Source: a virus
Length of the DNA stretch: 64,000 nt
Virus record (IMG/VR): IMGVR_UViG_3300042317_000390
Coordinates: 32,001-96,000 of that record
Strand: one strand, 5' to 3'
The position numbers and the translations under genes are program-made. Shown here piece by piece: positions 1-36,684 of this stretch. Each line of letters opens with the position of its first letter. The first letter of the stretch is position 1. Below the pieces are notes generated by a model. It saw only the letters and a list, made by a program, of their open reading frames with translations. It searched no databases and was not told where the DNA came from.

Positions 1-214
1 ACTCAAGCGGAATCTCCGTCCAGAGAATAGACATCCAATATGTCTGAAACTCGGGTGCAAATGAGTCAAGACCAGCCCTCCAGCCGAATACCTGCTCATA
101 GATTCTGACGATTAGATAGAATGTGTTTAGAAGCGCAAGGCCAATCCACATTCCACGGAGATCAACGACATCTGACTTTGCTGCGACTGCAGCGGTTGTA
201 GTTACTGTACTCAT
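1..214 (-). CDS. pmoC: Particulate methane monooxygenase subunit C, 5' part (runs off window start)
   Basis: Manual translation from ATG at 214: MSTVTTTAAVAAKSDVVDLRGMWIGLALLNTFYLIVRIYEQVFGWRAGLDSFAPEFQTYWMSILWTEIPLE, which matches the Methylocystis/Methylosinus-type PmoC N-terminus. GGAGAA RBS at 221-226. Not in the ORF track. Confidence 0.97.
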   Translation of the reverse strand, partial: MSTVTTTAAVAAKSDVVDLRGMWIGLALLNTFYLIVRIYEQVFGWRAGLDSFAPEFQTYWMSILWTEIPLE

Positions 215-3229: not shown

Positions 3230-3516
3230 AGCTGACCTACTTGCTAACCATATGTGCGACCATCTTGCTGACCAGCTGTAATGACCAAAGTCAAGTTATT
3301 ACAAGCTACAGATATATGGTAGTTCATCCGTCAGAAGCAATGTATTATTGCCCTGTTCTTAAAGAATTTCCTAATTGGAAGACTTTAACTGATGCACAAG
3401 TTGCAAAGACAGTAATACAGCTACAGAAGAACAATTTGAACTGCAAGAGTTCAATGCAATCTATTAAATCATTTTTGGATAAGGAAGAAAAAAGGCTCCA
3501 AAGTCAGGAGCCTTAA
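3226..3516 (+). CDS. Outer-membrane spanin lipoprotein (Rz1/PseT.2-like)
   Basis: Lipobox LLTS-C, additional Cys and Pro, ATGA overlap with the i-spanin. Confidence 0.75.
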   Translation: MKLTYLLTICATILLTSCNDQSQVITSYRYMVVHPSEAMYYCPVLKEFPNWKTLTDAQVAKTVIQLQKNNLNCKSSMQSIKSFLDKEEKRLQSQEP

Positions 3517-3519
3517 TCT

Positions 3520-3738
3520 TTAGTTGCCTGCGGCGTCTTTAACTGTTGTAATCTGCGTTAGGAAACGCATAACAGCCATTACTAGACCAGCGGCTAGACC
3601 AGCGGCTGGTACAACTAGATTCTCTGGAACACCCCATCCAGCTAACACTGATGTCCAATCAATACCACCAACCTTTTCGCTGACGATTGGTAGAACTGCC
3701 ATTAGGAAAGCTACGAGATAAGTCTTATAACCGTTCAT
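3520..3738 (-). CDS. Putative holin (small, 2 TM)
   Basis: MNGYKTYLVA N-terminus and two hydrophobic helices; adjacent to the spanins. Confidence 0.55.
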   Translation of the reverse strand: MNGYKTYLVAFLMAVLPIVSEKVGGIDWTSVLAGWGVPENLVVPAAGLAAGLVMAVMRFLTQITTVKDAAGN

Positions 3739-3775
3739 GATAATCTCCTTTCAATGAATTGCCTGTTAGGCTGTA

Positions 3776-3979
3776 TTATTTAGGAGTATCTTCGGTCTGC
3801 TTTGTCATACACTGTGTTTTGAGATTATAACCTATCCAGAACGACCTTTGTCTACGGTCGCACCAGTTTTTACTCTTTAGGAACTTTTCGGGATCAACAC
3901 CATTACGCGCAACGCCTTTACCGATAACAAGTATTCTGGATAGTTCTTCTTTTGGTATTTTATGTCGGCGCTTGGACAC
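3776..3979 (-). CDS. Small basic hypothetical protein
   Basis: GTG start after GGAG, own promoter. Confidence 0.6.
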   Translation of the reverse strand: MSKRRHKIPKEELSRILVIGKGVARNGVDPEKFLKSKNWCDRRQRSFWIGYNLKTQCMTKQTEDTPK

Positions 3980-3994
3980 GTGGATTCTCCGTTA

Positions 3995-4036
3995 TTAGTA
4001 TACACTTATAATATACTAAAAAGTCTGAGAAGTAAA
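3995..4036 (-). promoter_or_regulatory. Early promoter TTTACT-N17-TATTAT with 8-bp dyad
   Basis: -35 at 4031-4036, -10 at 4008-4013; inverted repeat TTAGTATA-N9-TATACTAA. Confidence 0.75.
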
Positions 4037-4037
4037 A

Positions 4038-4352
4038 TTATTCATTTCTCCAAACGAGCGCCTTTTTCTTTTCATCATCAGTTAAGATGTGAGCGATATG
4101 ATGCGCTTCGGTCTTCAGTGTACCCTTCGGTGCTACAGCTTTTATTCTATCAGAAAGATCATTATAGTTTCTTTCCAACAGAGTAACTGTATAATCAAAA
4201 GCACCATCTGATAACTTCGGATCATCTAGTTCATAGTATAAGTAGCAGGAGTATAGAAACATTGTCTCCTGCCACTCTAACATCTTCTGCCAACTAACAG
4301 CTTGACATGTATCGGAATAACCACTATTTTCTGTCTTTACCCAAGTCATCAC
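4038..4352 (-). CDS. Stand-alone NAD-dependent ligase domain Ia-like protein
   Basis: YLYYELDDPKLSDGAFD matches the LigA YY-D-P-SD-YD motif; no adenylation domain. Confidence 0.65.
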   Translation of the reverse strand: MMTWVKTENSGYSDTCQAVSWQKMLEWQETMFLYSCYLYYELDDPKLSDGAFDYTVTLLERNYNDLSDRIKAVAPKGTLKTEAHHIAHILTDDEKKKALVWRNE

Positions 4353-4564
4353 GACCTCTCTATGATGTCCAGTAAACCCTTCAGGAATTCAACCTCAGAT
4401 AAAGCGCCTTTCTGTAATCCCTTATAATAAGGGTCTTTCAGTGGATCTTGCGCTGCATAATTGGTTCTGTTCCGAAGCCTGTCATAAAGAAACTCTTTTA
4501 TTTCCACTAGTGCTGTGTCTGCATTCTTAGTTAAGAACTTATTAGTCATTGTCTCTATCCTCAT
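4349..4564 (-). CDS. Hypothetical protein
   Basis: ORF downstream of an early promoter. Confidence 0.55.
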   Translation of the reverse strand: MRIETMTNKFLTKNADTALVEIKEFLYDRLRNRTNYAAQDPLKDPYYKGLQKGALSEVEFLKGLLDIIERS

Positions 4565-4592
4565 AATTAGTTATTTCATCGTCCACAGAGTA

Positions 4593-4690
4593 ATTATACT
4601 ATTATAATTTTAACAAGTAAAGTGAATTATCTTCTGGGTTACATTATTTTTTAATTTACTTGTTAGGCGCTTTCCTTTAATATAAGAAAA
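4593..4690. promoter_or_regulatory. Divergent early promoters
   Basis: Minus: TTTACT(4616-4621)-N17-TATAAT(4593-4598). Plus: TTTACT(4655-4660)-N17-TAATAT. Confidence 0.7.
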
Positions 4691-4713
4691 TAAGAAAACG
4701 GTGGAGATCACTA

Positions 4714-5373
4714 ATGGTTAAGCTGTCCCGTCCCTCCAAGATGCCTTGCGCTACTTGGTCACTGGAAGCAAGAAAAACTTGCCCAGGTTCGGTTGATCCT
4801 GTAACCAAGGAATCAGTCCCGGTCTGCGAAGGTTGTTACGCCTCTTATGGTTTCTATAAGATGCCTGCCTCCAAGAAAATTCGTATTAACAATCGTAAAG
4901 ATTGGCAGCGCAAAGAATGGGTTAGTGAGATGATCGAAGCGATCAATACTCAGAAACCCGATAAGCAAGGTAAACGATATTTTCGTTGGTTTGACTCCGG
5001 CGACATCTATCATCCTAATCTTGCCGTTAAGATTTTAGAGGTTATGAAAGGAACTCCAAAGGTTAAGCATTGGCTTCCTACTCGTTCCTACAAGATACCT
5101 AAGATCAGAGAAACATTAGAGGAAATGAAACTTCTTCCTAATGTTATGGTTCGTTATTCGTCTGATTCGATAACGGGAGAACACGGTGAGATTCACGGAT
5201 CGGTGGTTATCCCTGATCATGACTTTAAGATCAAGGCAAAGAAGTGCGATGCTTATGAACGAGACGGTAAGTGCGGTGACTGTAGAGCTTGCTGGAGTAA
5301 GAGCGTTAAGTTAATTGCTTACAGCGCTCACGGCGTTAAGATGAAGACAGTCGTTAAAAAACACGCTGCTTAG
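4714..5373 (+). CDS. GP88-family (radical-SAM-like, Cys-rich) phage protein
   Basis: LSRPSKMP, TCPGS..VCEGCYA, FRWFDSGD, HWLPTR, CGDCRACW. Confidence 0.75.
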   Translation: MVKLSRPSKMPCATWSLEARKTCPGSVDPVTKESVPVCEGCYASYGFYKMPASKKIRINNRKDWQRKEWVSEMIEAINTQKPDKQGKRYFRWFDSGDIYHPNLAVKILEVMKGTPKVKHWLPTRSYKIPKIRETLEEMKLLPNVMVRYSSDSITGEHGEIHGSVVIPDHDFKIKAKKCDAYERDGKCGDCRACWSKSVKLIAYSAHGVKMKTVVKKHAA

Positions 5374-5382
5374 GAGTATATA

Positions 5383-5958
5383 ATGAAACCGACATACGAA
5401 GAAGCACTCAAAGGAACTATGCAGTGGCGTGATAACTATAAGGATATTGGCATTCTATTGTCATTCCATGGTTATCGTAATGGTCCTGAGTATCAGAGCG
5501 AAGGAACATGGTGCTATTATCTATTACTAGATGAACGCATGTTCAATCCCAAAGACTGGAAAAAGATGTGGTTTAAACCTCAAGTTACAGATTGGGGGTT
5601 GGACTATAACTATTATGCGTTTCCTGATGTTGACTTTCACGGCGGCATCACGTTCTATGAACAGGGTGAGCAATATGAACGCAAGACAGGTAAGAAGTTT
5701 AAGACGCTCAAGGTAGGATGTGACTACGCTCATCTTTGGGATAGCGAACGTGGTTATCCTGATTATTATGATAGCGTCTTGTTTGATGCTAAACACTCTG
5801 TTACGTGTTTACTTTCTCACTTTCCTAACGTAAAGTGGAAGTGCGGTTATTCTGGTATTTGGGACGACCCAAAGAATTTCTATATTGCTAAGAATGGAAA
5901 ACGAATCCATATTAGCATGGAAGAAAAGATCGAATGGGCAGAATGGAAACGAGCATGA
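5383..5958 (+). CDS. Conserved phage hypothetical protein
   Basis: FHGGITFY..VGCDYAHLWD motif; RBS. Confidence 0.7.
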   Translation: MKPTYEEALKGTMQWRDNYKDIGILLSFHGYRNGPEYQSEGTWCYYLLLDERMFNPKDWKKMWFKPQVTDWGLDYNYYAFPDVDFHGGITFYEQGEQYERKTGKKFKTLKVGCDYAHLWDSERGYPDYYDSVLFDAKHSVTCLLSHFPNVKWKCGYSGIWDDPKNFYIAKNGKRIHISMEEKIEWAEWKRA

Positions 5959-7058
5959 GAAAGTATCATCCCGGCGATAAGGTAACAGTCAGAGCAATTG
6001 TGCGGTATAACTGTATGTCTGGTAGATTGTTAGGGGTTGAGATTATCGGTGAAGGTAATATTGATCATGTGACAGTAGTAATACCTGTCGATCAAATAGT
6101 ATCACACGAGAAGGTGCCGCCAGGACAGCCTTTGGAAAGGGATGCTGCAAGTGCGTCTCGAAGACGAAGCCGACGACACCGCTGCGCTGGCGCTTCTCGC
6201 ACCCGCCGCGCACAATCCAGGAGGAACGCCATGAGCAGCATGCGCAAGCTCGAACGCGATTTCGCTCATGCCGACGCCGCTGCCGTCAACGGCTTGCTCG
6301 CGCAGCTCGGCGACGAAGACGTTATGGCACGGTTCGGCCTTGAGGCGCGGCTCGCCGACCTGCAGGCCGAGATCGCTCGGCTCGACGCCGCCGGCGACGA
6401 GCCTGTCGCGTCGGCCGCCCTGTTCTTCGGCGGTCGTCCTGTACTCGGCCAGCGGGGGATCGAGAGCGAATTCGCCGGCACCGTTATCACCAAATTTCAA
6501 GATATCGTCGCGAAGGTTCTGGCGCGCTGGGTGACACCTCGACCCTCGCCGACCCCGGCGTGGTCGATGCGCTCATCAAGGATCACGCCTCCAGCTGACG
6601 TTTGTCGACGCGCCACCTGCGTCGGCCTTGGCCTTGACAGCCAATATGTTTACCATAATGTTAGTAGGTTTGTAAAAGTATATAAGATGCACACAGCTAA
6701 AATCAAACCGCTATTCAAACCCGGTGATCGTGTTATATGGGATGATACGGCATATAACAAGAAAAGAAAAGCAACTGTTATTGCTTGCTGTGATGATGAG
6801 TATTATACTATTGAAGTGGATAGTAAGTATTCAAAATATAATACATTCAACGTCCATGTAGACAATCTTGATCCCATGCCCAAAGAAGTTAAGATAGCAG
6901 ATAAAGAATATGCTGTCAAGTGTGCTAAATGGTTTAAATCTGCTTACGCAGCGATAACAAAAGCTGGTGGTGTTCCTGAATATGTTATCGACAGTATTCC
7001 GGCTGATGTGTTAGATAATCTTATACGGAACGATCTCCACTTGGAGTATAAGAAGTGA
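5955..7058 (+). CDS. Phage protein with two PGD(K/R)V domains, interrupted in frame by a GC-rich host-like insert
   Basis: AT-rich KYHPGDKV and LFKPGDRV segments flank about 570 bp of GC-rich DNA; the frame stays open. Confidence 0.6.
   Translation: MRKYHPGDKVTVRAIVRYNCMSGRLLGVEIIGEGNIDHVTVVIPVDQIVSHEKVPPGQPLERDAASASRRRSRRHRCAGASRTRRAQSRRNAMSSMRKLERDFAHADAAAVNGLLAQLGDEDVMARFGLEARLADLQAEIARLDAAGDEPVASAALFFGGRPVLGQRGIESEFAGTVITKFQDIVAKVLARWVTPRPSPTPAWSMRSSRITPPADVCRRATCVGLGLDSQYVYHNVSRFVKVYKMHTAKIKPLFKPGDRVIWDDTAYNKKRKATVIACCDDEYYTIEVDSKYSKYNTFNVHVDNLDPMPKEVKIADKEYAVKCAKWFKSAYAAITKAGGVPEYVIDSIPADVLDNLIRNDLHLEYKK
6116..6526 (+). pseudogene. Host-like fragment 1: 3' end of a gene (RQDSLWKGMLQVRLE..GGTP*, resembling the DUF6932 C-terminus) plus the truncated 5' part of its partner (MSSMRKLE..)
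   Basis: GC-rich, AGGAGG RBS at 6219-6224, ATGA stop/start overlap at 6231-6234. Confidence 0.65.
6524..6598 (+). pseudogene. acs: Host-like fragment 2: 3' end of acetyl-CoA synthetase
   Basis: Alternative frame reads ALGDTSTLADPGVVDALIKDHASS*, the conserved Acs C-terminal LGDTSTLADP motif. Confidence 0.8.
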
Positions 7059-7351
7059 CCCTATACTATTATTCTACAGAATATCCTAATGAAAAACAGG
7101 ATATGGATGAGTTCTTTGAGTATATTGCATATGAGTATGAAGACATCAATAGATTGAAATGTGATATAAATTGGTTGACAGAAGATATAGCAAAAGTAAT
7201 GTATTATGGTCATGATGGTTGGGAATGGTGGAAGTATGGTCAAACTCAAACCATCCATTTGTGGGATAGTGATAGAAACTATCTTGGTCATTTTGATGCT
7301 GAATATGAAGTCGAACCTTCTTTCATTACTAGGGATATAGTGAAGCCATGA
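7055..7351 (+). CDS. Hypothetical protein
   Basis: ORF overlapping both neighbours. Confidence 0.65.
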   Translation: MTLYYYSTEYPNEKQDMDEFFEYIAYEYEDINRLKCDINWLTEDIAKVMYYGHDGWEWWKYGQTQTIHLWDSDRNYLGHFDAEYEVEPSFITRDIVKP

Positions 7352-7692
7352 ACTCACAGGAACTCTTGAAGGCGGGATATAAACAGTGTGTTGATCATAT
7401 GGCACCTGAATATGTCAAGGAAACACGCTATTTTTATCAAAAGAAAATATACCGTATAACTGACGGTATATTGTTATATTTTATCAACGTATATGAGTAT
7501 GATTGGCGTCATTTTAATCATAGGAACAAAGACTTTGCTTATGAAGCAAAACTACATTTATATGTTGATGATAAAGCAGACTGTCTACATGTGCATTTTA
7601 ATTGTGATAAGTTTGAGGTAAGAGAACTAGAAGAATATGTCAGTGATCTATATCTACAAATAGGCTGCGTTCCAGACAAACATAATGATTGA
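7348..7692 (+). CDS. Hypothetical protein
   Basis: ORF. Confidence 0.65.
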   Translation: MNSQELLKAGYKQCVDHMAPEYVKETRYFYQKKIYRITDGILLYFINVYEYDWRHFNHRNKDFAYEAKLHLYVDDKADCLHVHFNCDKFEVRELEEYVSDLYLQIGCVPDKHND

Positions 7693-7810
7693 GGTGTATT
7701 ATGCCAGATGATATCATATGACAAATATGATGTCTATGGTTTTTATAAGAGTAGCAAGGTCACTGTGGAATTGGACGATAAATAAGAAAAACATTCCCAA
7801 AGAGCGATTG

Positions 7811-8017
7811 ATGTCAAGTTTATCAGAATCATTACAAAGACGCAAAGAAGTAGCAAAAGAGCGTCTTGCTATATGCATGGATTGCGATAAATACAACCAT
7901 ACTACAACTCAATGTAATGAGTGTGGTTGTATTATGTTGTTAAAAACAATTCTTGCTAGTTCGTCATGTCCTTTGAAAAAGTGGGGAGTTGATAACGAAG
8001 AAAATCATAAGGAATAA
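7811..8017 (+). CDS. DUF6171-like small Cys-rich (metal-binding) protein
   Basis: ERLAICMDC..QCNECGC..K..CPLKKW; near-consensus late promoter GATAAATA at 7777-7784. Confidence 0.7.
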   Translation: MSSLSESLQRRKEVAKERLAICMDCDKYNHTTTQCNECGCIMLLKTILASSSCPLKKWGVDNEENHKE

Positions 8018-8022
8018 CATTT

Positions 8023-8712
8023 ATGGCTACACCAGCTTCCGGTCAAATATCATTTTCGCAGATAGCACAAATTGTTTATAATAATGCCAGCGCTACAGTT
8101 TCTTTTAATGATACTGACGTTAGAAAGTTATTGAATACAACTACTGATCTTAGTACAATATCATTCAGCGTTGCTTATAGCAAACCAGTAGCTAATTCTT
8201 ATTCATATACATCTGCCGGAGATTACACTCTTTTAATTCTACCATATCAGAACATAGACGTTGATGCTCGTGGCGGAGGTCAGGGTGGTAATGGTGGAAC
8301 GGGTTCAGATACTTGTACTGGATGGTGTGGACAATTATGCTTCTTTAACTATTGCTGTAACGGCAGAGGCGGTGCTGCAGGTGATTCAGGTGGTGATAGT
8401 TATTTCAGAGGCGACGGTAAAGATATAACAGCATATGCTGGAACTTCAAGTGGTGCAGGTGGTGGTTATGGTGGATCTGTAACTACAGGCGGCGGTGGAG
8501 CCGGTGGCACTTTGGGTTACGGTTTCGGATGTACTGGTAGCAACGGTAGTGCTGGTAATCCTGGTGGTAGAGTTACAAAGACTTATACAAAAGGTTCCGA
8601 TGGACCAGGATACACTACTTCTATAGCCATAAGAGTTGGTGGTGGTGGAGCCGGTGGATATAACGCCGGTGGAACTGGTGGTTCTGGCGCTGTATATGTA
8701 TCAATAAGATAA
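8023..8712 (+). CDS. Glycine-rich tail-fibre tip adhesin-like protein (gp38-like)
   Basis: N-terminus MATPASGQISFS..SFND.DVR.L, multiple GGxGG polyglycine runs, C-terminal GxSGAVYV. Confidence 0.6.
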   Translation: MATPASGQISFSQIAQIVYNNASATVSFNDTDVRKLLNTTTDLSTISFSVAYSKPVANSYSYTSAGDYTLLILPYQNIDVDARGGGQGGNGGTGSDTCTGWCGQLCFFNYCCNGRGGAAGDSGGDSYFRGDGKDITAYAGTSSGAGGGYGGSVTTGGGGAGGTLGYGFGCTGSNGSAGNPGGRVTKTYTKGSDGPGYTTSIAIRVGGGGAGGYNAGGTGGSGAVYVSIR

Positions 8713-22494: not shown

Positions 22495-22672
22495 CATAGT
22501 GTGTTATGGTGCAGTCTCAGCTCTCTCTTATATAATAGATTATGCATGGCTCAGTTGAAGCTAGTTTAAAAAGATTCCGAACAACGAAAAAAAGAGTTTA
22601 CTTGGGGCGATGTTAGGACTAATCTCTAACTATCGGCGAAACGGTTCGCTGGTCTTAACTGGAGTAGGTAAT

Positions 22673-23185
22673 ATGGAAAATATCGCTTTTGCCCCCGTGT
22701 CGTTTGCTGACTTCTCTGCGGCTGTTGTTGCGGCTGGTTATACGCCGGTTCAGTATAGCGGCACTGGTTATTATGTTAAGGCGAAAAACGGCATTCGTGT
22801 CGAATTTCAGAACACTAAGGGCGGCCAGTTTGGCGTTGGTTACACTAACCCGGTCAATAAGGTTGCGGCTGTGTTCGATGCGCTCCAGGCTAATCCTGTG
22901 GACGGTCTGGTGTATATAAACCGCATTACCCGTTCTTTTAACTATCGCGCCACGGATGTCGCTGGCTTCTTGAAACTGGTGGACGCTGTCGGTGCCGTAA
23001 AACTGCCCGCTAGTGCCCGTGAAGTCAACGCTGCTACCCCTGTGGCGGCTAAGCCCCAGAAACCCGTCTATAAGGTTGCTGATGCCCGCCGCGTTGATCC
23101 GGCGTCGGATGCAGGCAAGGCCATCGCCAGTGACGCACTCGCTTCCATCGCGCTCATCGAATCCAAGACGAAGAAGCGGGCATAA
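22673..23185 (+). CDS. GC-richer, host-codon-like hypothetical protein with own promoter and terminator
   Basis: TTTACT-N17-TAATCT at 22597-22625, GGAG RBS, Ala/Lys-rich tail. Confidence 0.8.
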   Translation: MENIAFAPVSFADFSAAVVAAGYTPVQYSGTGYYVKAKNGIRVEFQNTKGGQFGVGYTNPVNKVAAVFDALQANPVDGLVYINRITRSFNYRATDVAGFLKLVDAVGAVKLPASAREVNAATPVAAKPQKPVYKVADARRVDPASDAGKAIASDALASIALIESKTKKRA

Positions 23186-23443: not shown

Positions 23444-26400
23444 TTACTCCTTATAAACATCACTGTTCGGAGTGCTTTCACCACTGGATTTATTGTTTTG
23501 CGTTTCATCTTTCTTTATTATCTCCAAATTGTGTAAATCTATAATGAGTTGGATCATTTGTAGTTTTTGACGATCTGCACCAAGACCACGCCAGGTCTCA
23601 CTCTTTTCTTTTGCATAAATAAGGCGAATAAGGATTTCTTTTTCCTTATTGATATACTCAATTTGTTTTGATGACAGTTTCATTACCGAGCCTCCACGTT
23701 GAACTTCTTCTTGAGTCTTTCAAACTCTTCACGATCACGCTTTTCTGTCATCTCCCTATAGTATTCTTCTTGTACTATTCTCTTATTATATTCATCATCA
23801 GTTTCTAGACGTTCTGCTTTCAATACGATATGTCTGCCAAAACCATCGAAATCATCTTGAAATTCAAACATAGCATTAGAGCCATATTCTTTTTTCCAAG
23901 AGTCAATTTGATTACTAAAACTCTCAAGAGTTGCATAATCCATATCAACGTAAGTCTCAACAATATCCCATACTTTATTCTTAGACATCTTAGCTCTCCT
24001 ATAGCTTAATATACTCTATATAATTCTCTCTCATAAATACTCTATCTTCTGAGAGCATATGAATAATTGTGCCCATTATATCATATTCACGTTTATATTC
24101 TTTTAACTGACGCAGTTCATAGAGCTTCATATAGAGCTTACCAACAGTTTCCTCTATTTCTATCTCTAGCTGTTCAGCGGATTTCATAGTTCATTCCCAT
24201 AGGTCATAACTCTAATCAGGCGATATCTCTCTGTCTTAGCCTTTTCTTCGGTATCAAATTCCATATTAAGATTAGCCTCCATATTGGATAATACTACAGT
24301 AAAATAGTATTTCTCATTTGTATTATTATAGCAGATTTTCCCTACTAATACAATATAGTCTGTGTTAAGAGCTACACCGCTTTCGGTTTCAAATACGCTC
24401 ATAATGCAAACTCCACAAGCTTTACTATCTTCACAGCTAGTTCATTAAAATTCTTCACATACAGATCTTCACCATACTCATTATGAATAATAGCGTCCTT
24501 GTATATAATATCTTCTATTTTCTCTATGAGATCTTTTCTTTGATTGTTTTTATAATTATCAACATATTCCATACCTTTACGAACGCCTTCCTGTATAGCT
24601 ATCATTCTTAATGCTATACATACATCTGGTCTAATATTGACTATCATCTTTACCCTCCAATAGATTCTTACAGAGTTTCTTCCACCAGTCTCTTTGATTA
24701 TACGCCTTATCATGAGATAGTTCATGATAGTCATTAGCGATATATCGGACTAGCTTCATGTATTTGTTAGCCTCAGTGACTATAGTGTTAGCCATGCCTA
24801 TAGGATTACCGATATCAATCTCCATATCGGGACATAGTGTTGTTAATAGACCTATAGCCTGATAAAGCTCAGAAATTTCTTGTTCCTGAGATTTCATAAT
24901 ATCACTGTTTTGTTTAAACAGTTCCTTACTAGAAGCTACCATAGTCTGTAGTTCTTCGGTGAGAAACTGATATTCTCTTAGATCTTCCTCAAACTTACAA
25001 AGCTTATCACGAAAGTCCTCACGCTCTGCTATACACTCAGCATAATATGTATTGATCTTACTGAGTAGTTCCTCTAGTTCAGCGATACGAGTATCTTTTC
25101 GTTCCTCACGAGCGGACATTGCTGAGATTTCTAGAGCATGAACAAATCGAAGCTCATTAATCTCTATGCGTTGATTCTCATTATATTCCTCTAGTTCCTT
25201 CACTCTATTCTCTAGGAATATAATCTGTGAAGATGCGGGTGTGCCTCTAGTCATTCTTCTTCTCCAAGGCGGCGCGGAACGCTTGCGCTATTTCAGAACG
25301 AGGCATACCGTTTAATCGAAATGCTATCTCGCTGCCTTCGACCAATGCTTTGTCCCGTGCATCTTTCAGCGCCGCTTCAAGCTCCTCAATGCGGGCGGCT
25401 TGCTTCTCTAGCGGCGCTATAACATTTGGCCACGGGCGGTCACCGTAAAGCAGTGCTGCTGTCTCTTGAGCGCAGACATACATGTCAGACATAGCCCAGC
25501 GAGAACCTGTGTATTGATGACGTATTAAAGCGTCCCAGTTCTTTAGCGCTGCTTCCAACGCCGCATTACGGGCGCGTAAAAGAACCCTCGCCCGAATGCG
25601 GCTCTTTGAGTCGCGTTTTTTCATTTCTTCTCTCGCAAGTCGAGGTCTTCTTTAATAAGTGTGCTATAAGACTCTAGAATAGCACACCGCCATCTAAGAT
25701 TCTCATTCTCTTTCATTAGAGACTCATTCCCCTTATTAAGAAGATCCTTGAGTTTCTCAATCTCAGCGTTTAGCTCATTAATATGATTACGGCTGGCTAT
25801 AATGAGATCTCTCACTGCAGTGTGATTAGCTAGTTCTGGGTTGAATAAACCACCCATTACGAGATATTCACTGATTCTCTCAAGTACAGTCATTAGTTAA
25901 TATCCTTCAGAACACTAGGATCAATACAGGTATAGAGATGTTTTGTATGCTTACCTACTCTATAGGTTCTGTCTAGAAGTTCACCACCTGCTTGTTGACA
26001 CTTTAAAGTGCGTTCTTCTAGTGCCTTATCAGCACAATTTACTACATATACCATGAAACCAATAAAAACTAGTGTAAGAACAAGAATTGTCCCCATAAAC
26101 CATTTATCTTCATCATACATTATATTATCTCCTTTAGTCTACCAATTCACTAGACTTACCATAGAACACATTCTTCATTATATGAGCTGCATTTTCACCA
26201 ATAATCATTCTTTTTTCTTCAGGTAAGCTCACTACTTCTTTCTGTAGACTATCAAACCAATCATAGAAACCCACAGTCCAATACTTGTTATAAGGAAGTC
26301 TATATCTGGCGCATTGATGTTTTCGTGGGTAACGCCTTACCTTATGGTGCCACGTTGGGCGGCGACGTGCCTTCTTGCTCATGGATTCTTGCCTTTTCCT

Positions 26401-29403: not shown

Positions 29404-29477
29404 TCAGGGATAGTTCAGCGGTAGAACATCGGACTTTGACTCCGATAACCTTGGTTCGAATCCAAGTCCCTGATCCA
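29404..29477 (+). tRNA. tRNA-Gln(TTG)
   Basis: Acceptor TCAGGGA/TCCCTGA, anticodon arm TCGGA-CTTTGAC-TCCGA, TTCGAAT T-loop, encoded CCA. Confidence 0.95.
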
Positions 29478-33919: not shown

Positions 33920-35857
33920 TGCTAGATTATCTAATAAAAATAATTATAGGGTTATCAGTCTTTATTTTAGGATTGACAGTCTATGCGGCTATCAAAGAAG
34001 GAGAACTGAAAGACGCCTTCGATCAAGTGTGTAGAGATTCAGGTGGAGTCCCACTAAGAGCTACATATCACTATGATCCAAAGGAAAATAAAATACATTA
34101 CGTTTGTTTAAAATACACTTCGATTATGAACGTTGAATAAAGGATATATAATGAATAAACTATTTACTACATGCGCATTAGCATCGATGATGTTTATCGG
34201 ATATAATATTGCTAATGCATCAGAGACAACGGAACTTAAGTGCTATCCTAATGATGTATTCATGAAGCTTATCGATGAAAAGGCTCTGGTAACTCTTTAC
34301 AACGGAGAAAAGAACGGTAAGATTAATGAAGTTATGATGACCAAGGATCGTCACCTATATATTGTAGAATACGATAGGGCAGCAGACGGTAACGCTCTAC
34401 AAGCAAAGCAATATTGCGTAATTGGTATTCTAAACGATGTGACATTTAACGATTCAGCTATTGAGTTTCTCTCAAAGCTACTTGACAAGTATAAAGGACA
34501 AAAGACATGAGTATTCTAGGACCAGATGGCGCAATACCTTATAATAGTTTTACTACTGGTGGATTAGTTAAGAAGAATCCAATTAATGATATTCGTATGG
34601 TTATGTTTCCTAAGATGGTAGTACATCCAGAAACTAAGCAGATGGTAATGGTTCCAATGCAAGATCTTCAGTATAAGCGTGAAGGATCTGAAGAATGGTT
34701 CTCAGTGGGTATCCATGAGACTGAGAAGCACGAGTTTAATCCCGAAGACAAGACAGAGGTCACTAATGAAAATTGAGTTTAGTCGGTATTCATCAGACGC
34801 CTTAGATGAAATTCTTAACGCTCTTATCATTGAAGATTGGCAAAATGTTAGGGATGAAGTCAAGCGTCTTAAGAAGAGTTTGAAAAATAAAGACTCAAAT
34901 TCAAGTTACAAAAATGTGTTAGAAGAAGATCTGAAGTTCAATAAAAAGGTCAAGAAGGCATACGAAACTATTCTGCGTTATTGTCTTCCTTATGAACGAG
35001 CGAAGGAATTGTTAGGAGAAGAGAAGTGCAAGGAAAATGGTCAGTAGTTGGTTCCGCTTGGAACGAAGAATCGGAAGTTATGGTAAAGTATATTTGGGAA
35101 AAGACTGGCGTTGAGCCAAAATACTTTGCTCTATATTCAACCATGATGGCGTTTATTCGTCACGCTGGAATTGATGAGAACCATCCTATTGCGTTTCGTA
35201 ACGGACACTTGATTGGTAATATCGAAAATGTCAGGAGGGTAATATGAGAAAAGTATATCTTGGTATCGCACTGGTGTTTCTTAGTTTGGGTTTGTCTGGT
35301 TGCTTGGTGGCGACCATCGGTGAGTGCATTGTACGGGATTCAACTAACCGTCCCTGTAACTGAACCAGTTATAGAAGACTTTGAAAACGAATTGGATACG
35401 CAATGAAAGAATTAACTGATTCTAAAGCAATAGATATTGCTACTTTAGTAAAATATGTTGTTTGGAGCAAAGATAAGGTAGCTGGAGGAGTAAGTCAAGA
35501 AAACGCAATGCACGCTTTATCTAGACTTATTGATTATCCTATTGACTTAATGAACAAAATAGCAGCAAAAGAATGAAGAAATTATTGGTAATTTTTTCAT
35601 TCGTTCCTTCTTTAGCGTTCGCATCAGAAGATGTCGTATGTGAAAAGAAAGTAATGGATAGTCATATAGTCCACTGTAAATCAAAAAAGGTGATCGACGT
35701 TTCGTTGGTCAGCATTAATGGCGGTCAGTGTAATGCTCCTTCGTTTCACTGGCATGGTTCAGGAGGATTTTCAATCCCAGGCACCAAAGAATGTAGTTAC
35801 GTTGGAGCAGTCACTTTATCGATTAATGGACACACAAAAACATTTGCTCCTTTATAA
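33919..35857 (+). CDS. Run of small ORFs, several with signal peptides or TM anchors (33919, 34151, 34507, ~34767, 35026, 35573)
   Basis: ORF track plus hydrophobic N-termini. Confidence 0.55.
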
Positions 35858-35860
35858 ATA
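35853..35860 (+). promoter_or_regulatory. T4 late promoter for tmRNA
   Basis: TATAAATA just upstream of the tmRNA acceptor piece. Confidence 0.75.
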
Positions 35861-35865
35861 AGTTT

Positions 35866-36179
35866 GCCGAGGTCGTTGAGAGACGAAATATAGGTTTCTT
35901 GGACGTGGGGGCAGTTCCCACCGCCTCCACCATAGATACATAGATCGGAAGTGGATGAAAAAGGATACACACACCCGATTATGCAGTTGCCTTTTACCTG
36001 CAACTATGTATCTTTGATGGGGGCGATTCAGGTTCGACAGGATTCAGTAAGGTCGTAAGGAGATCGAAGGCGAAACGTAGATGCAAACGATAACGACGCA
36101 TCTTTTGGAGTTTATGCTCTAGTAGCATAATCCATTGGGCTGGCGACTTGCCTAGAAACAGAAAAGTCTGCTTTTTTTT
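35866..36179 (+). ncRNA. ssrA: Circularly permuted two-piece tmRNA
   Basis: Acceptor piece ends GTGGG-GGCAGTT-CCCAC-CGCCTCC-ACCA (35932). Coding piece starts GGGGGCG (36019), giving G3-U70. Tag frame 36083-36130 reads ANDNDASFGVYALVA*, followed by a pseudoknot and T-tract. Confidence 0.93.
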
Positions 36180-36607: not shown

Positions 36608-36684
36608 GATTCCGTAGCTCAGCTGGATAGAGCAACTGCCTTCTAAGCAGTAGGTCATTGGTTCGAATCCAATCGGAATCGCCA
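36608..36684 (+). tRNA. tRNA-Arg(TCT)
   Basis: GATTCCG/CGGAATC acceptor, ACTGC-CTTCTAA-GCAGT anticodon arm, CCA. Confidence 0.95.

What the first reader, a model, noticed from the sequence alone, without database searches (positions are those of the whole stretch)
6116..6686. Two-locus mosaic of host-like DNA stitched in frame into a phage gene
Seen: GC jumps abruptly (47/60 at 6361-6420 versus 17/60 at 6781-6840). The insert joins two unrelated pieces. The first is an operon junction: a gene end ..WKGMLQV..*, AGGAGG, an ATGA overlap and about 98 codons of the next gene. The second follows a GCG(C) microhomology at ~6524: the acetyl-CoA synthetase 3' end (LGDTSTLADPGVVD..*) and downstream DNA containing TTGACA..CATAAT. 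The whole insert keeps the phage ORF open between its two PGD(K/R)V domains. Inference: a snapshot of illegitimate end-joining capture of host fragments, the kind of event that could seed genes like pmoC. It may also supply a promoter for the downstream half-gene (ATG 6687) and should fingerprint a recent host.
Basis: partly seen in the sequence, partly recalled or inferred. Interest (0 to 1): 0.8.

Follow-up and report, generated by a model that had tools for sequence, protein, structure and literature searches.

The report
Bacterial DNA patch fusing two phage genes
A methane-oxidiser phage carries a real ~0.5 kb patch made of two unlinked bacterial DNA fragments that replaced ~0.3 kb of phage DNA and fused two small phage genes, a clean but not unprecedented example of microhomology-mediated capture of bacterial DNA.

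Summary
Window 6116-6642 is a GC island (150-bp GC up to 0.74; genome 0.385, z 6.8) built from two unlinked alphaproteobacterial pieces. Piece 1 is the junction of a DUF6932 gene and a ~315-aa gene (6116-6525). Piece 2 is the last 23 codons of acetyl-CoA synthetase plus 44 nt downstream (6526-6642). It is not an assembly chimera: the identical fusion gene is on at least 16 contigs from several samples and assemblers.

The interpretation needs correction. This is not an insertion into one phage gene. Intact relatives show that ~522 bp of bacterial DNA replaced ~314 bp of phage DNA, fusing the 5' half of a 104-aa gene to the 3' 138 codons of a 195-aa gene. The ATG at 6687 is an internal Met, and 6643-6686 is ancestral phage coding sequence. 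Junctions carry 5-6 nt microhomologies (GCCGC, GGCGC). Differences from the nearest donors sit at third positions of the bacterial frames, so the capture is recent and the donor unsampled. The proposed promoter fails (14-nt spacer). Host fingerprinting is weak, because piece 1 comes from a mobile island beside a Type I Bub operon.

This is a known kind of event, with a precedent in pmoC phages. An anti-defence decoy role for the captured fragment is not excluded (about 12%).

The parts
5383..5958 (+). Conserved 191-aa phage gene upstream; its stop overlaps the next start (ATGA)
   Evidence: 80-82% nt identity to L025, L028 and L121
5955..6120 (+). 5' half (about 55 codons) of a 104/105-aa phage gene; start of the fused ORF
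   Evidence: 90.6% nt identity to L121 3997-4166; 89% aa identity to the intact 104-aa protein P0129
6116..6120 (.). Left junction: 5-nt microhomology GCCGC shared by the phage parent and donor 1
   Evidence: Phage homology runs to 6120; donor 1 homology starts at 6116
6116..6234 (+). Last 38 codons and stop (TGA 6232-6234) of a bacterial DUF6932 gene; the phage ORF reads it in another frame
   Evidence: Tail RQDSLWKGMLQVRLEDEADDTAALALLAPAAHNPGGTP* differs from L029 at one residue. The full donor protein matches PF22014 at 5e-29
6219..6224 (+). Donor ribosome-binding site AGGAGG, 6 nt before the donor ATG
   Evidence: Sequence; conserved in donors
6231..6525 (+). First 98 codons of a bacterial ~315-aa protein of unknown function (phrog_18731); same frame as the phage ORF
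   Evidence: 97% aa and 91.5% nt identity to L029; phrog_18731 at 4.8e-14
6520..6525 (.). Middle junction: (T)GGCGC microhomology between donor 1 and the acs piece
6526..6598 (+). Last 23 codons and stop (TGA 6596-6598) of an acetyl-CoA synthetase gene; out of frame with the phage ORF
6599..6642 (+). GC-rich DNA downstream of acs; contains TTGACA at 6634-6639; right edge of the bacterial patch (uncertain by about 10 nt)
   Evidence: no donor found
6643..7058 (+). 3' 138 codons of a 192/195-aa phage gene, including the internal Met at 6687 and the invariant C-terminal domain
   Evidence: 90-92% nt identity to L121 4481-4905 and L025 5165-5579; protein alignment A1
5955..7058 (+). Fused open reading frame (367 aa from the ATG at 5955; 275 aa from the donor ATG at 6231)
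   Evidence: The 275-aa call is P0002, found on at least 16 contigs; alternative calls are P0130 and P0131

Best explanation
A Methylocystis-type pmoC phage (168.6 kb, GC 38.5%) suffered a break or template switch in a hypervariable block of small early genes. About 314 bp were lost: the 3' half of a 104-aa gene and the first ~54 codons of the adjacent 195-aa gene. The gap was bridged by ~522 bp copied or ligated from two unlinked pieces of high-GC alphaproteobacterial DNA present in the infected cell. Piece 1 is the junction of a DUF6932 / ~315-aa gene pair from a mobile island next to a Type I Bub operon. Piece 2 is the 3' end of acetyl-CoA synthetase. Each joint used 5-6 nt of microhomology. 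This fits microhomology-mediated end joining of host DNA fragments or serial template switching during recombination-dependent replication. The product happens to be one continuous ORF with an internal bacterial RBS and ATG. The event is recent and fixed in a circulating phage lineage. It is most likely a tolerated by-product of repair rather than an adaptation. Shown: the foreign origin, the two loci, the empty site in relatives, the microhomologies, the independent assemblies and the recency. Inferred: the repair mechanism, the neutrality, and the infected cell as the donor.
For: Composition: the strongest GC island in the genome.

Donor homology and edges: piece 1 runs 6116-6525. Piece 2 is a true acs 3' end.

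The pieces are unlinked in the two genomes that hold both: each piece matched a different locus, on differently named contigs.

Empty site: intact 104-aa and 192-195-aa genes in relatives. In L121 the 104-aa gene (4001..4315) is followed directly by the 195-aa gene (4318..4905). Window 5951-6120 matches L121 3997-4166, and window 6643-7058 matches L121 4481-4905.

Microhomologies: GCCGC at the left junction and (T)GGCGC at the middle one.

Not a chimera: the 275-aa fusion is on at least 16 contigs (43 index blocks) from JGI, NCBI, ENA and Logan. L018 and L019 are identical to the window over 6.8 kb. L020 has 22 SNPs in its flanks and none in the patch.

Recency and an unsampled donor:
- Against L029, gene 2 has 22 synonymous and 3 nonsynonymous codon differences.
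- The DUF6932 tail has 11 synonymous and 1 nonsynonymous in its own frame. Read in the phage ORF frame, 10 of the 12 are nonsynonymous.
- 16 of 19 phage-branch changes lie at donor third positions (p 7e-6).
- The patch GC is still 0.64-0.69.

Host: pmoC is 96% aa identical to Methylocystis pmoC, and the window holds an alphaproteobacteria-type tmRNA.

Precedent: part of a bacterial acyl-CoA dehydrogenase gene in pmoC phages LM_1/7/8 (PMC7674155).
Against: No read-level check was possible.

No donor matches either piece at 100%. The best for piece 1 is 91.5% nt. For piece 2, matches stop within the conserved coding part and never reach its last codons or the 44 nt downstream. So the donor organism, the right-hand junction and any microhomology there remain open.

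The continuous in-phase ORF is a ~3.5% outcome for random joins. The fragment also keeps its RBS and its predicted partner interface. Some selection on the product therefore cannot be dismissed.

The closest empty-site relative is only ~90% identical, so the exact size of the deletion is model-dependent: 314 bp against L121, 666 bp against L025.
Confidence: 0.72

Rival explanations
1. Functional anti-defence decoy. The captured fragment (native RBS, ATG and first 98 residues of the ~315-aa protein) is translated, alone or as the 275/367-aa fusion. It binds the DUF6932 partner of a host two-gene system and neutralises it, so the capture was selected.
For: The fragment keeps AGGAGG-N6-ATG and an open frame.

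The truncation at residue 98 falls at the end of the N-terminal helical region, before a disordered linker at 103-127.

The complex model supports binding of the phage-borne fragment to DUF6932. The score is 0.72 against a best control of 0.01. The mark was reached by 58 of 80 solved complexes and 2 of 110 mismatched pairs. The runs share at least 76% of their contacts, and the partner pLDDT is about 64. The interface uses fragment residues 11-43.

The donor pair always lies in defence-island-like contexts beside a Type I Bub operon, MmeI and T5orf172. DUF6932 hits PADLOC candidate PDC-M63A weakly, at 2e-10.

The in-phase open ORF is a ~3.5% chance outcome.
Against: The substitution pattern needs no selection in the phage, because the untranslated-frame tail shows the same pattern.

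Neither the pair nor Bub has a demonstrated defence function; the Bub authors found no phage protection.

The fragment is followed by 39 out-of-frame codons of bacterial DNA.

The pair is rare in the probable host genus: 3 of 78 genomes, at 73% nt.

All phage copies are identical, so no selection test is possible. The complex score is a model's confidence, not a measurement.
Confidence: 0.12
2. One-step capture from a pre-assembled mosaic. The two bacterial pieces were already joined in a degenerate mobile element or prophage in the host, or in a co-infecting phage, and were acquired together.
For: The ~315-aa family is in PHROGs (phrog_18731). Donor loci sit among integrases and recombinases. 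Chen et al. suggest recombination during coinfection for the bacterial fragment in LM_1/7/8. No separate donor of piece 2 was found.
Against: The only protein in the 5.8-billion-cluster database that matched the fragment at 100% was the phage's own fusion, and its cluster holds no other forms. The middle joint truncates both genes and shows the same microhomology signature as the phage-bacterium joint. acs is a core chromosomal gene.
Confidence: 0.1
3. Assembly chimera: host reads were mis-joined into a phage contig.
For: Abrupt composition change; metagenomic origin; no read data available here.
Against: The identical junction-spanning gene is on at least 16 contigs (43 index blocks) from different samples and assemblers, including Logan per-run assemblies and JGI assemblies. 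A strain variant with 22 flank SNPs carries the same patch. All joints lie in one continuous frame with precise microhomologies.
Confidence: 0.02
4. Regulatory gain. The patch was kept because it supplies a promoter (TTGACA..CATAAT) or a strong RBS that restores expression of the conserved C-terminal domain of the 195-aa gene and the translationally coupled downstream genes.
For: The C-terminal ~45 residues of the 195-aa family are invariant among relatives. The donor RBS and ATG are in phase with it. The downstream gene starts with GTG overlapping the stop at 7055-7058.
Against: The TTGACA-CATAAT spacer is 14 nt and the sigma-70 scan does not call it. CATAAT is ancestral coding sequence, also present in L025 and L121. 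The upstream phage ORF from 5955 already reads through in phase.
Confidence: 0.04

Closest known systems
Illegitimate (microhomology-mediated) recombination as the source of phage genome mosaicism and host-DNA acquisition (discussed in PMC2327257 and PMC8136500)
   Same: Foreign DNA joined at very short sequence identities, in a hypervariable block of small genes; the novel joints ignore gene boundaries; related phages show the uninterrupted site.
   Different: Here the filler has two unlinked bacterial fragments in tandem. It is combined with a deletion that fuses two phage genes, and all three joints can be located to within a few bases.
Partial bacterial acyl-CoA dehydrogenase gene in pmoC phages LM_1/LM_7/LM_8 (Chen et al. 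2020, PMC7674155)
   Same: Same phage group and size class (about 160-175 kb, alphaproteobacterial methanotroph hosts). A fragment of a bacterial metabolic gene sits inside the phage genome and is used as a host clue.
   Different: Different locus and different genes. That paper describes a shared 2-kb region attributed to recombination during coinfection and gives no junction analysis. I did not compare the sequences.
Morons and auxiliary metabolic genes (for example the phage's own pmoC)
   Same: Host-derived DNA in a phage genome with atypical composition.
   Different: Morons and AMGs are complete, expressed genes. The patch holds only gene fragments (38, 98 and 23 codons) and still has bacterial GC.
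Phage escape by capture of host antitoxin sequence (phage phiTE acquiring toxI repeats from ToxIN; recalled from memory, Blower et al. 2012, not checked here)
   Same: This would be the analogue if the decoy reading is true: a lytic phage recombines with a host defence locus and expresses the neutralising part.
   Different: No defence function is known for the DUF6932 / ~315-aa pair. No phenotype or expression data exist, and binding is only predicted.
Templated or filler insertions at repaired double-strand breaks (MMEJ, MMBIR/FoSTeS-type template switching; general knowledge)
   Same: A deletion plus insertion of segments from distant loci, each joint with a few bases of microhomology.
   Different: These are described mainly in eukaryotes and bacteria. 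Which enzymes act in this phage-host pair is unknown and was not tested.

Membership tests
Host-DNA capture by illegitimate recombination in a phage | Segment with foreign composition relative to the genome | tested here: met
   150-bp GC up to 0.74 against a genome mean of 0.385, z 6.8; the strongest island in 168.6 kb
Host-DNA capture by illegitimate recombination in a phage | Segment is homologous to cellular genes, with divergence that follows the cellular reading frames | tested here: met
   91.5% nt and 97% aa identity to L029. 22 synonymous to 3 nonsynonymous in gene 2, and 11 to 1 in the DUF6932 tail, in the bacterial frames. acs tail
Host-DNA capture by illegitimate recombination in a phage | Related phages have the site without the segment | tested here: met
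   L121, L025 and L028 carry intact 104/105-aa and 185-195-aa genes and no bacterial DNA
Host-DNA capture by illegitimate recombination in a phage | Joints at microhomology, not at long homology or a recombinase site | tested here: met
   Left joint GCCGC, middle joint (T)GGCGC. The right joint could not be resolved because the donor is unknown
Host-DNA capture by illegitimate recombination in a phage | Physical continuity: reads spanning the joints at even coverage | not testable with these tools
   No reads available. Surrogate: identical joints in at least 16 contigs from several samples and assemblers
Moron / auxiliary metabolic gene | A complete foreign gene capable of expression on its own | tested here: not met
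   Only 38, 98 and 23 codons of three genes are present
Sigma-70 promoter supplied by the insert | TTGACA-like and TATAAT-like hexamers 16-18 nt apart | tested here: not met
   TTGACA at 6634-6639 and CATAAT at 6654-6659 are 14 nt apart. The scan does not call them, and CATAAT is ancestral phage coding sequence
Phage anti-defence decoy derived from a host defence or TA locus | Source locus is a defence or toxin-antitoxin system | tested here: inconclusive
   DUF6932 hits PADLOC candidate PDC-M63A at 2e-10; the partner has no hit. The pair is always beside a Type I Bub operon and other defence-island genes. The defence role of Bub is itself unproven
Phage anti-defence decoy derived from a host defence or TA locus | Captured part retains the partner-binding surface | tested here: inconclusive
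   In silico only. Score 0.72 against a best control of 0.01; the mark was reached by 58 of 80 solved and 2 of 110 mismatched pairs; at least 76% of contacts shared between runs; partner pLDDT about 64; interface residues 11-43
Phage anti-defence decoy derived from a host defence or TA locus | The fragment is expressed and protects the phage | not testable with these tools
   Needs transcript or peptide data and a phenotype assay

The most novel reading that the evidence does not exclude
The phage has captured, with its native ribosome-binding site, exactly the N-terminal partner-binding module of a protein from an uncharacterised two-gene system (DUF6932 plus a ~315-aa protein) that travels with Type I Bub operons. 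It expresses this module as a dominant-negative decoy that disarms the system. That would be a natural snapshot of how anti-defence genes arise from host defence fragments by microhomology-mediated repair.
Probability: 0.12. Interest if true: 0.75.

Novelty: new member of a known kind. Interest (0 to 1): 0.4.

Why it matters
This is a well-resolved natural example of how a lytic, low-GC phage picks up bacterial DNA:
- two unlinked fragments;
- two of the three joints mapped to the base with their microhomologies, and the third placed within about 10 nt;
- the ancestral site reconstructed from relatives;
- the capture shown to be recent by an internal frame control.

It documents the raw material from which phage accessory genes such as pmoC could arise. 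It also shows that such patches can persist across samples. For annotation, the 275/367/374-aa 'protein' is a chimera and should not seed a family. If the decoy reading were true, it would point to a new defence-like system next to Bub operons and to a route by which anti-defence genes are born.

Tried and rejected
- INPHARED blastn with 4700-8100: no match.
- IMG/VR search with the C-terminal half: nothing. The 191-aa gene gave only distant relatives.
- Piece 2 donor searches all failed. A back-translated acs tail (19 residues) against species genomes gave 0 hits. An 11-residue tail against JGI metagenomes gave one unrelated acs at 75%, and against species genomes 0 hits. BLAST against 301 genomes of the Methylocystis family matched at most the first 63 nt of the 120-nt query, within the conserved coding part.
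- Piece 1 in 78 Methylocystis species genomes: 3 hits at 73% nt, so it is not a useful host fingerprint.
- The first left-junction analysis with L025 left 5 nt (aaggt) unassigned. The closer relative L121 showed they are phage sequence.
- Function of the ~315-aa donor protein: no significant Pfam match (only a sub-threshold DUF1192 hit), no PDB sequence relative, the Atlas gives only 'hypothetical protein' clusters, and Foldseek against the PDB gives nothing below E 1e-3. DUF6932 has no PDB relative and no paper in the library.
- GC-to-AT bias on the phage branch (15:1 against 29:11) is not significant (p 0.15), so I do not claim amelioration.
- Two other moderately GC-rich ORFs (22610-23185 and 25247-25624) have no Pfam match and were not pursued.
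- An assembly chimera was considered and rejected.

Full report
**What is there**

The window is bases 32001-96000 of a 168,653-bp IMG/VR virus record that CheckV rates complete. Its GC is 0.385. It carries a stand-alone pmoC just upstream of the window, 96% identical in protein to Methylocystis pmoC. It also carries an alphaproteobacteria-type two-piece tmRNA. It belongs to the ~160-175 kb pmoC phages of alphaproteobacterial methanotrophs described by Chen et al. 2020 (PMC7674155).

At 6101-6600 the GC rises to 0.64-0.69, against ~0.35-0.40 in the flanks. A genome-wide scan shows this is the strongest island in the genome: maximum 150-bp GC 0.74, z 6.8. The next island reaches 0.64.

**The two bacterial pieces**

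Piece 1 (6116-6525) aligns with the junction of two overlapping bacterial genes.
- The first is a DUF6932 protein of about 193 aa (PF22014, 5e-29). The window has its last 38 codons and its stop.
- Then come AGGAGG, an ATGA overlap, and the first 98 codons of a ~315-aa protein of unknown function.
- The closest donors are unnamed metagenome contigs: L029 at 91.5% nt and 97% aa, and L021-L023 at 87-89% nt. Named genomes are more distant: Mesorhizobium at 79% nt and Methylocystis at 73% nt.

In every donor context the pair lies next to a Type I Bub operon. The operon comprises a Ubl-E2 fusion, a JAB-E1 fusion and BubE, with HTH/M78 regulators. It sits among integrases, MmeI-like and T5orf172 genes. 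The operon naming follows bioRxiv 10.1101/2024.11.21.623953. The ~315-aa family also matches phrog_18731. Piece 1 is therefore accessory, mobile DNA.

Piece 2 (6526-6598) reads LGDTSTLADPGVVDALIKDHASS* in a third frame. It aligns with the true 3' ends of acetyl-CoA synthetase genes. The 44 nt that follow (6599-6642) are GC-rich and have no match. In the genomes that hold both, the two pieces matched different loci, on differently named contigs.

**It is real**

The gene call from the donor ATG (6231) to 7058 is the 275-aa protein P0002. It is recorded on at least 16 contigs, in 43 index blocks, from JGI, NCBI, ENA and Logan.
- Two contigs from other samples are identical to the window over 6.8 kb.
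- A third has 22 SNPs at 3254-5079 and none in the patch.

Independent samples and assemblers giving the same three joints excludes an assembly chimera for practical purposes. Reads could not be examined.

**What the event was**

Relatives show otherwise. The C-terminal 123 residues have homologs of 176-196 aa. In the alignment, phage homology resumes at ..YVYHN(V/A)SRFVKVYKMHTAK, so the Met at 6687 is internal and 6643-6686 is ancestral coding sequence. The first 53 residues of the window ORF are 89% identical to the start of an intact 104-aa protein.

In the closest relative found (L121), the gene order is 190-aa gene, 104-aa gene (4001..4315), then 195-aa gene (4318..4905). Window 5951-6120 matches L121 3997-4166 at 90.6%, and window 6643-7058 matches L121 4481-4905 at 90.4%.

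So ~522 bp of bacterial DNA replaced ~314 bp of phage DNA. That fused two adjacent genes which lie in different frames in L121. A more distant relative (L025) has an extra 110-aa gene in the interval. The whole block varies in gene content between relatives.

**Joints**

- Left: phage homology runs to 6120 and donor 1 homology starts at 6116, which gives a 5-nt overlap, GCCGC.
- Middle: donor 1 runs through 6525. acs genes of this family read ..GGCGC.. (Gly-Ala) just before LGDTS, which gives a (T)GGCGC overlap.
- Right: phage sequence is certain from 6643. The donor is unknown, so the joint is placed only within about 10 nt.

This pattern fits microhomology-mediated joining of bacterial DNA fragments, or serial template switching. 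I cannot tell these two apart.

**Age and donor**

Against L029, gene 2 differs at 25 codons, 22 of them synonymous, and 21 of the 25 base differences are at third positions.

The DUF6932 tail serves as a control, because the phage ORF reads it in another frame. It shows 11 synonymous and 1 nonsynonymous difference in its own bacterial frame. In the phage frame, 10 of those 12 are nonsynonymous.

Of 19 changes unique to the phage copy, 16 lie at third positions of the bacterial frames (p 7e-6).

The divergence therefore arose under bacterial coding constraint. The true donor is an unsampled relative, and little has changed since capture. The GC has not drifted. A GC-to-AT excess on the phage branch is not significant (p 0.15).

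**Claims that fail**

TTGACA (6634-6639) and CATAAT (6654-6659) are 14 nt apart. The scan does not call them, and CATAAT is conserved phage coding sequence.

As a host fingerprint the patch is weak. It is clearly alphaproteobacterial, which agrees with pmoC and the tmRNA. But piece 1 is found in 3 of 78 Methylocystis species genomes at only 73% nt. The acs tail is absent from 185,579 species genomes and, apart from one unrelated acs gene (75% nt), from the JGI metagenomes.

**Is the open frame meaningful?**

Only one of the three frames of the patch is stop-free, and it is the frame that links both phage parts. Random 405+117-bp joins of comparable bacterial DNA give a stop-free chosen frame in 10.5% of trials. 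Adding the requirement that the right-hand gene is in phase brings this to 3.5%. That is mildly unusual and post hoc. Survivorship against polar effects on the translationally coupled downstream genes would explain it.

**The decoy reading**

An AlphaFold model of the donor protein (pTM 0.69) has three parts: an N-terminal helical region (1-101), a disordered linker (103-127) and a confident C-terminal domain. The capture stops at residue 98.

A complex prediction of DUF6932 with the phage-borne fragment passed:
- score 0.72 against a best control of 0.01;
- the mark was reached by 58 of 80 solved complexes and 2 of 110 mismatched pairs;
- the runs share at least 76% of their contacts, and the partner pLDDT is about 64;
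- the interface lies on fragment residues 11-43.

This supports an interacting pair and shows the interface is retained. It does not show binding, expression or benefit. No function is known for the pair. I give this reading about 12%.

**Verdict**

This is a genuine, recent, two-fragment bacterial filler at a deletion that fused two phage genes. It is a well-resolved instance of a known process, with a published precedent in the same phage group.

The scan had noted this stretch before (e1-5739274, e1-5739275). Those notes agree on the capture and on the decoy idea.

Noticed in passing
window 35839-36172 (+): The phage carries an alphaproteobacteria-type permuted (two-piece) tmRNA: Rfam RF01849 at 76.8 bits and RF04321 at 86.3 bits. 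ARAGORN gives the tag peptide ANDNDASFGVYALVA. A tRNA-Arg(tct) lies at 36608-36684 and a tRNA-Gln at 29404-29477.
   Followed up: partly
window 1-193 and upstream (G000:C1:31477-32193, - strand): Intact stand-alone pmoC (PF04896, 358 bits), 96% aa identical to Methylocystis pmoC. Some 'Methylocystis MAG' hits lie on short contigs and may be binned phage.
   Followed up: partly
window 3254-5079 compared with L020: A strain variant (JGI 3300034111) has 22 SNPs clustered within 1.8 kb, over small minus-strand genes and the GP88-family gene, and none in the next 5 kb. This suggests a local recombination patch rather than even divergence.
   Followed up: no
window 5958-7350 compared with L025, L028 and L121: The block of small genes between the 191-aa and 114-aa genes varies in content between related phages. 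Extra 76-, 110-, 90-, 104- and 111-aa genes are present or absent, so it is a hyperplastic region where indels are tolerated.
   Followed up: partly
L021, L029, L030, L031 and L002 (bacterial donor loci): A conserved pair (DUF6932 plus an uncharacterised ~315-aa protein, with an ATGA overlap) is always adjacent to a Type I Bub operon with HTH/M78 regulators. The two proteins are predicted to bind. This may be an undescribed accessory module of Bub islands.
   Followed up: partly
window 22610-23185 (+) and 25247-25624 (-): Two Ala-rich ORFs (191 and 125 aa) lie in moderately GC-rich spots (GC 0.55-0.57). They have no Pfam match and could be older acquisitions or just compositionally biased proteins.
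   Followed up: partly
window 6628-6644 (+): A weak terminator-like hairpin, TTGGCCTTGACAGCCAA followed by a T-rich tail, lies at the right edge of the patch. It has a 5-bp stem, lies inside the fused ORF, and is probably fortuitous.
   Followed up: no
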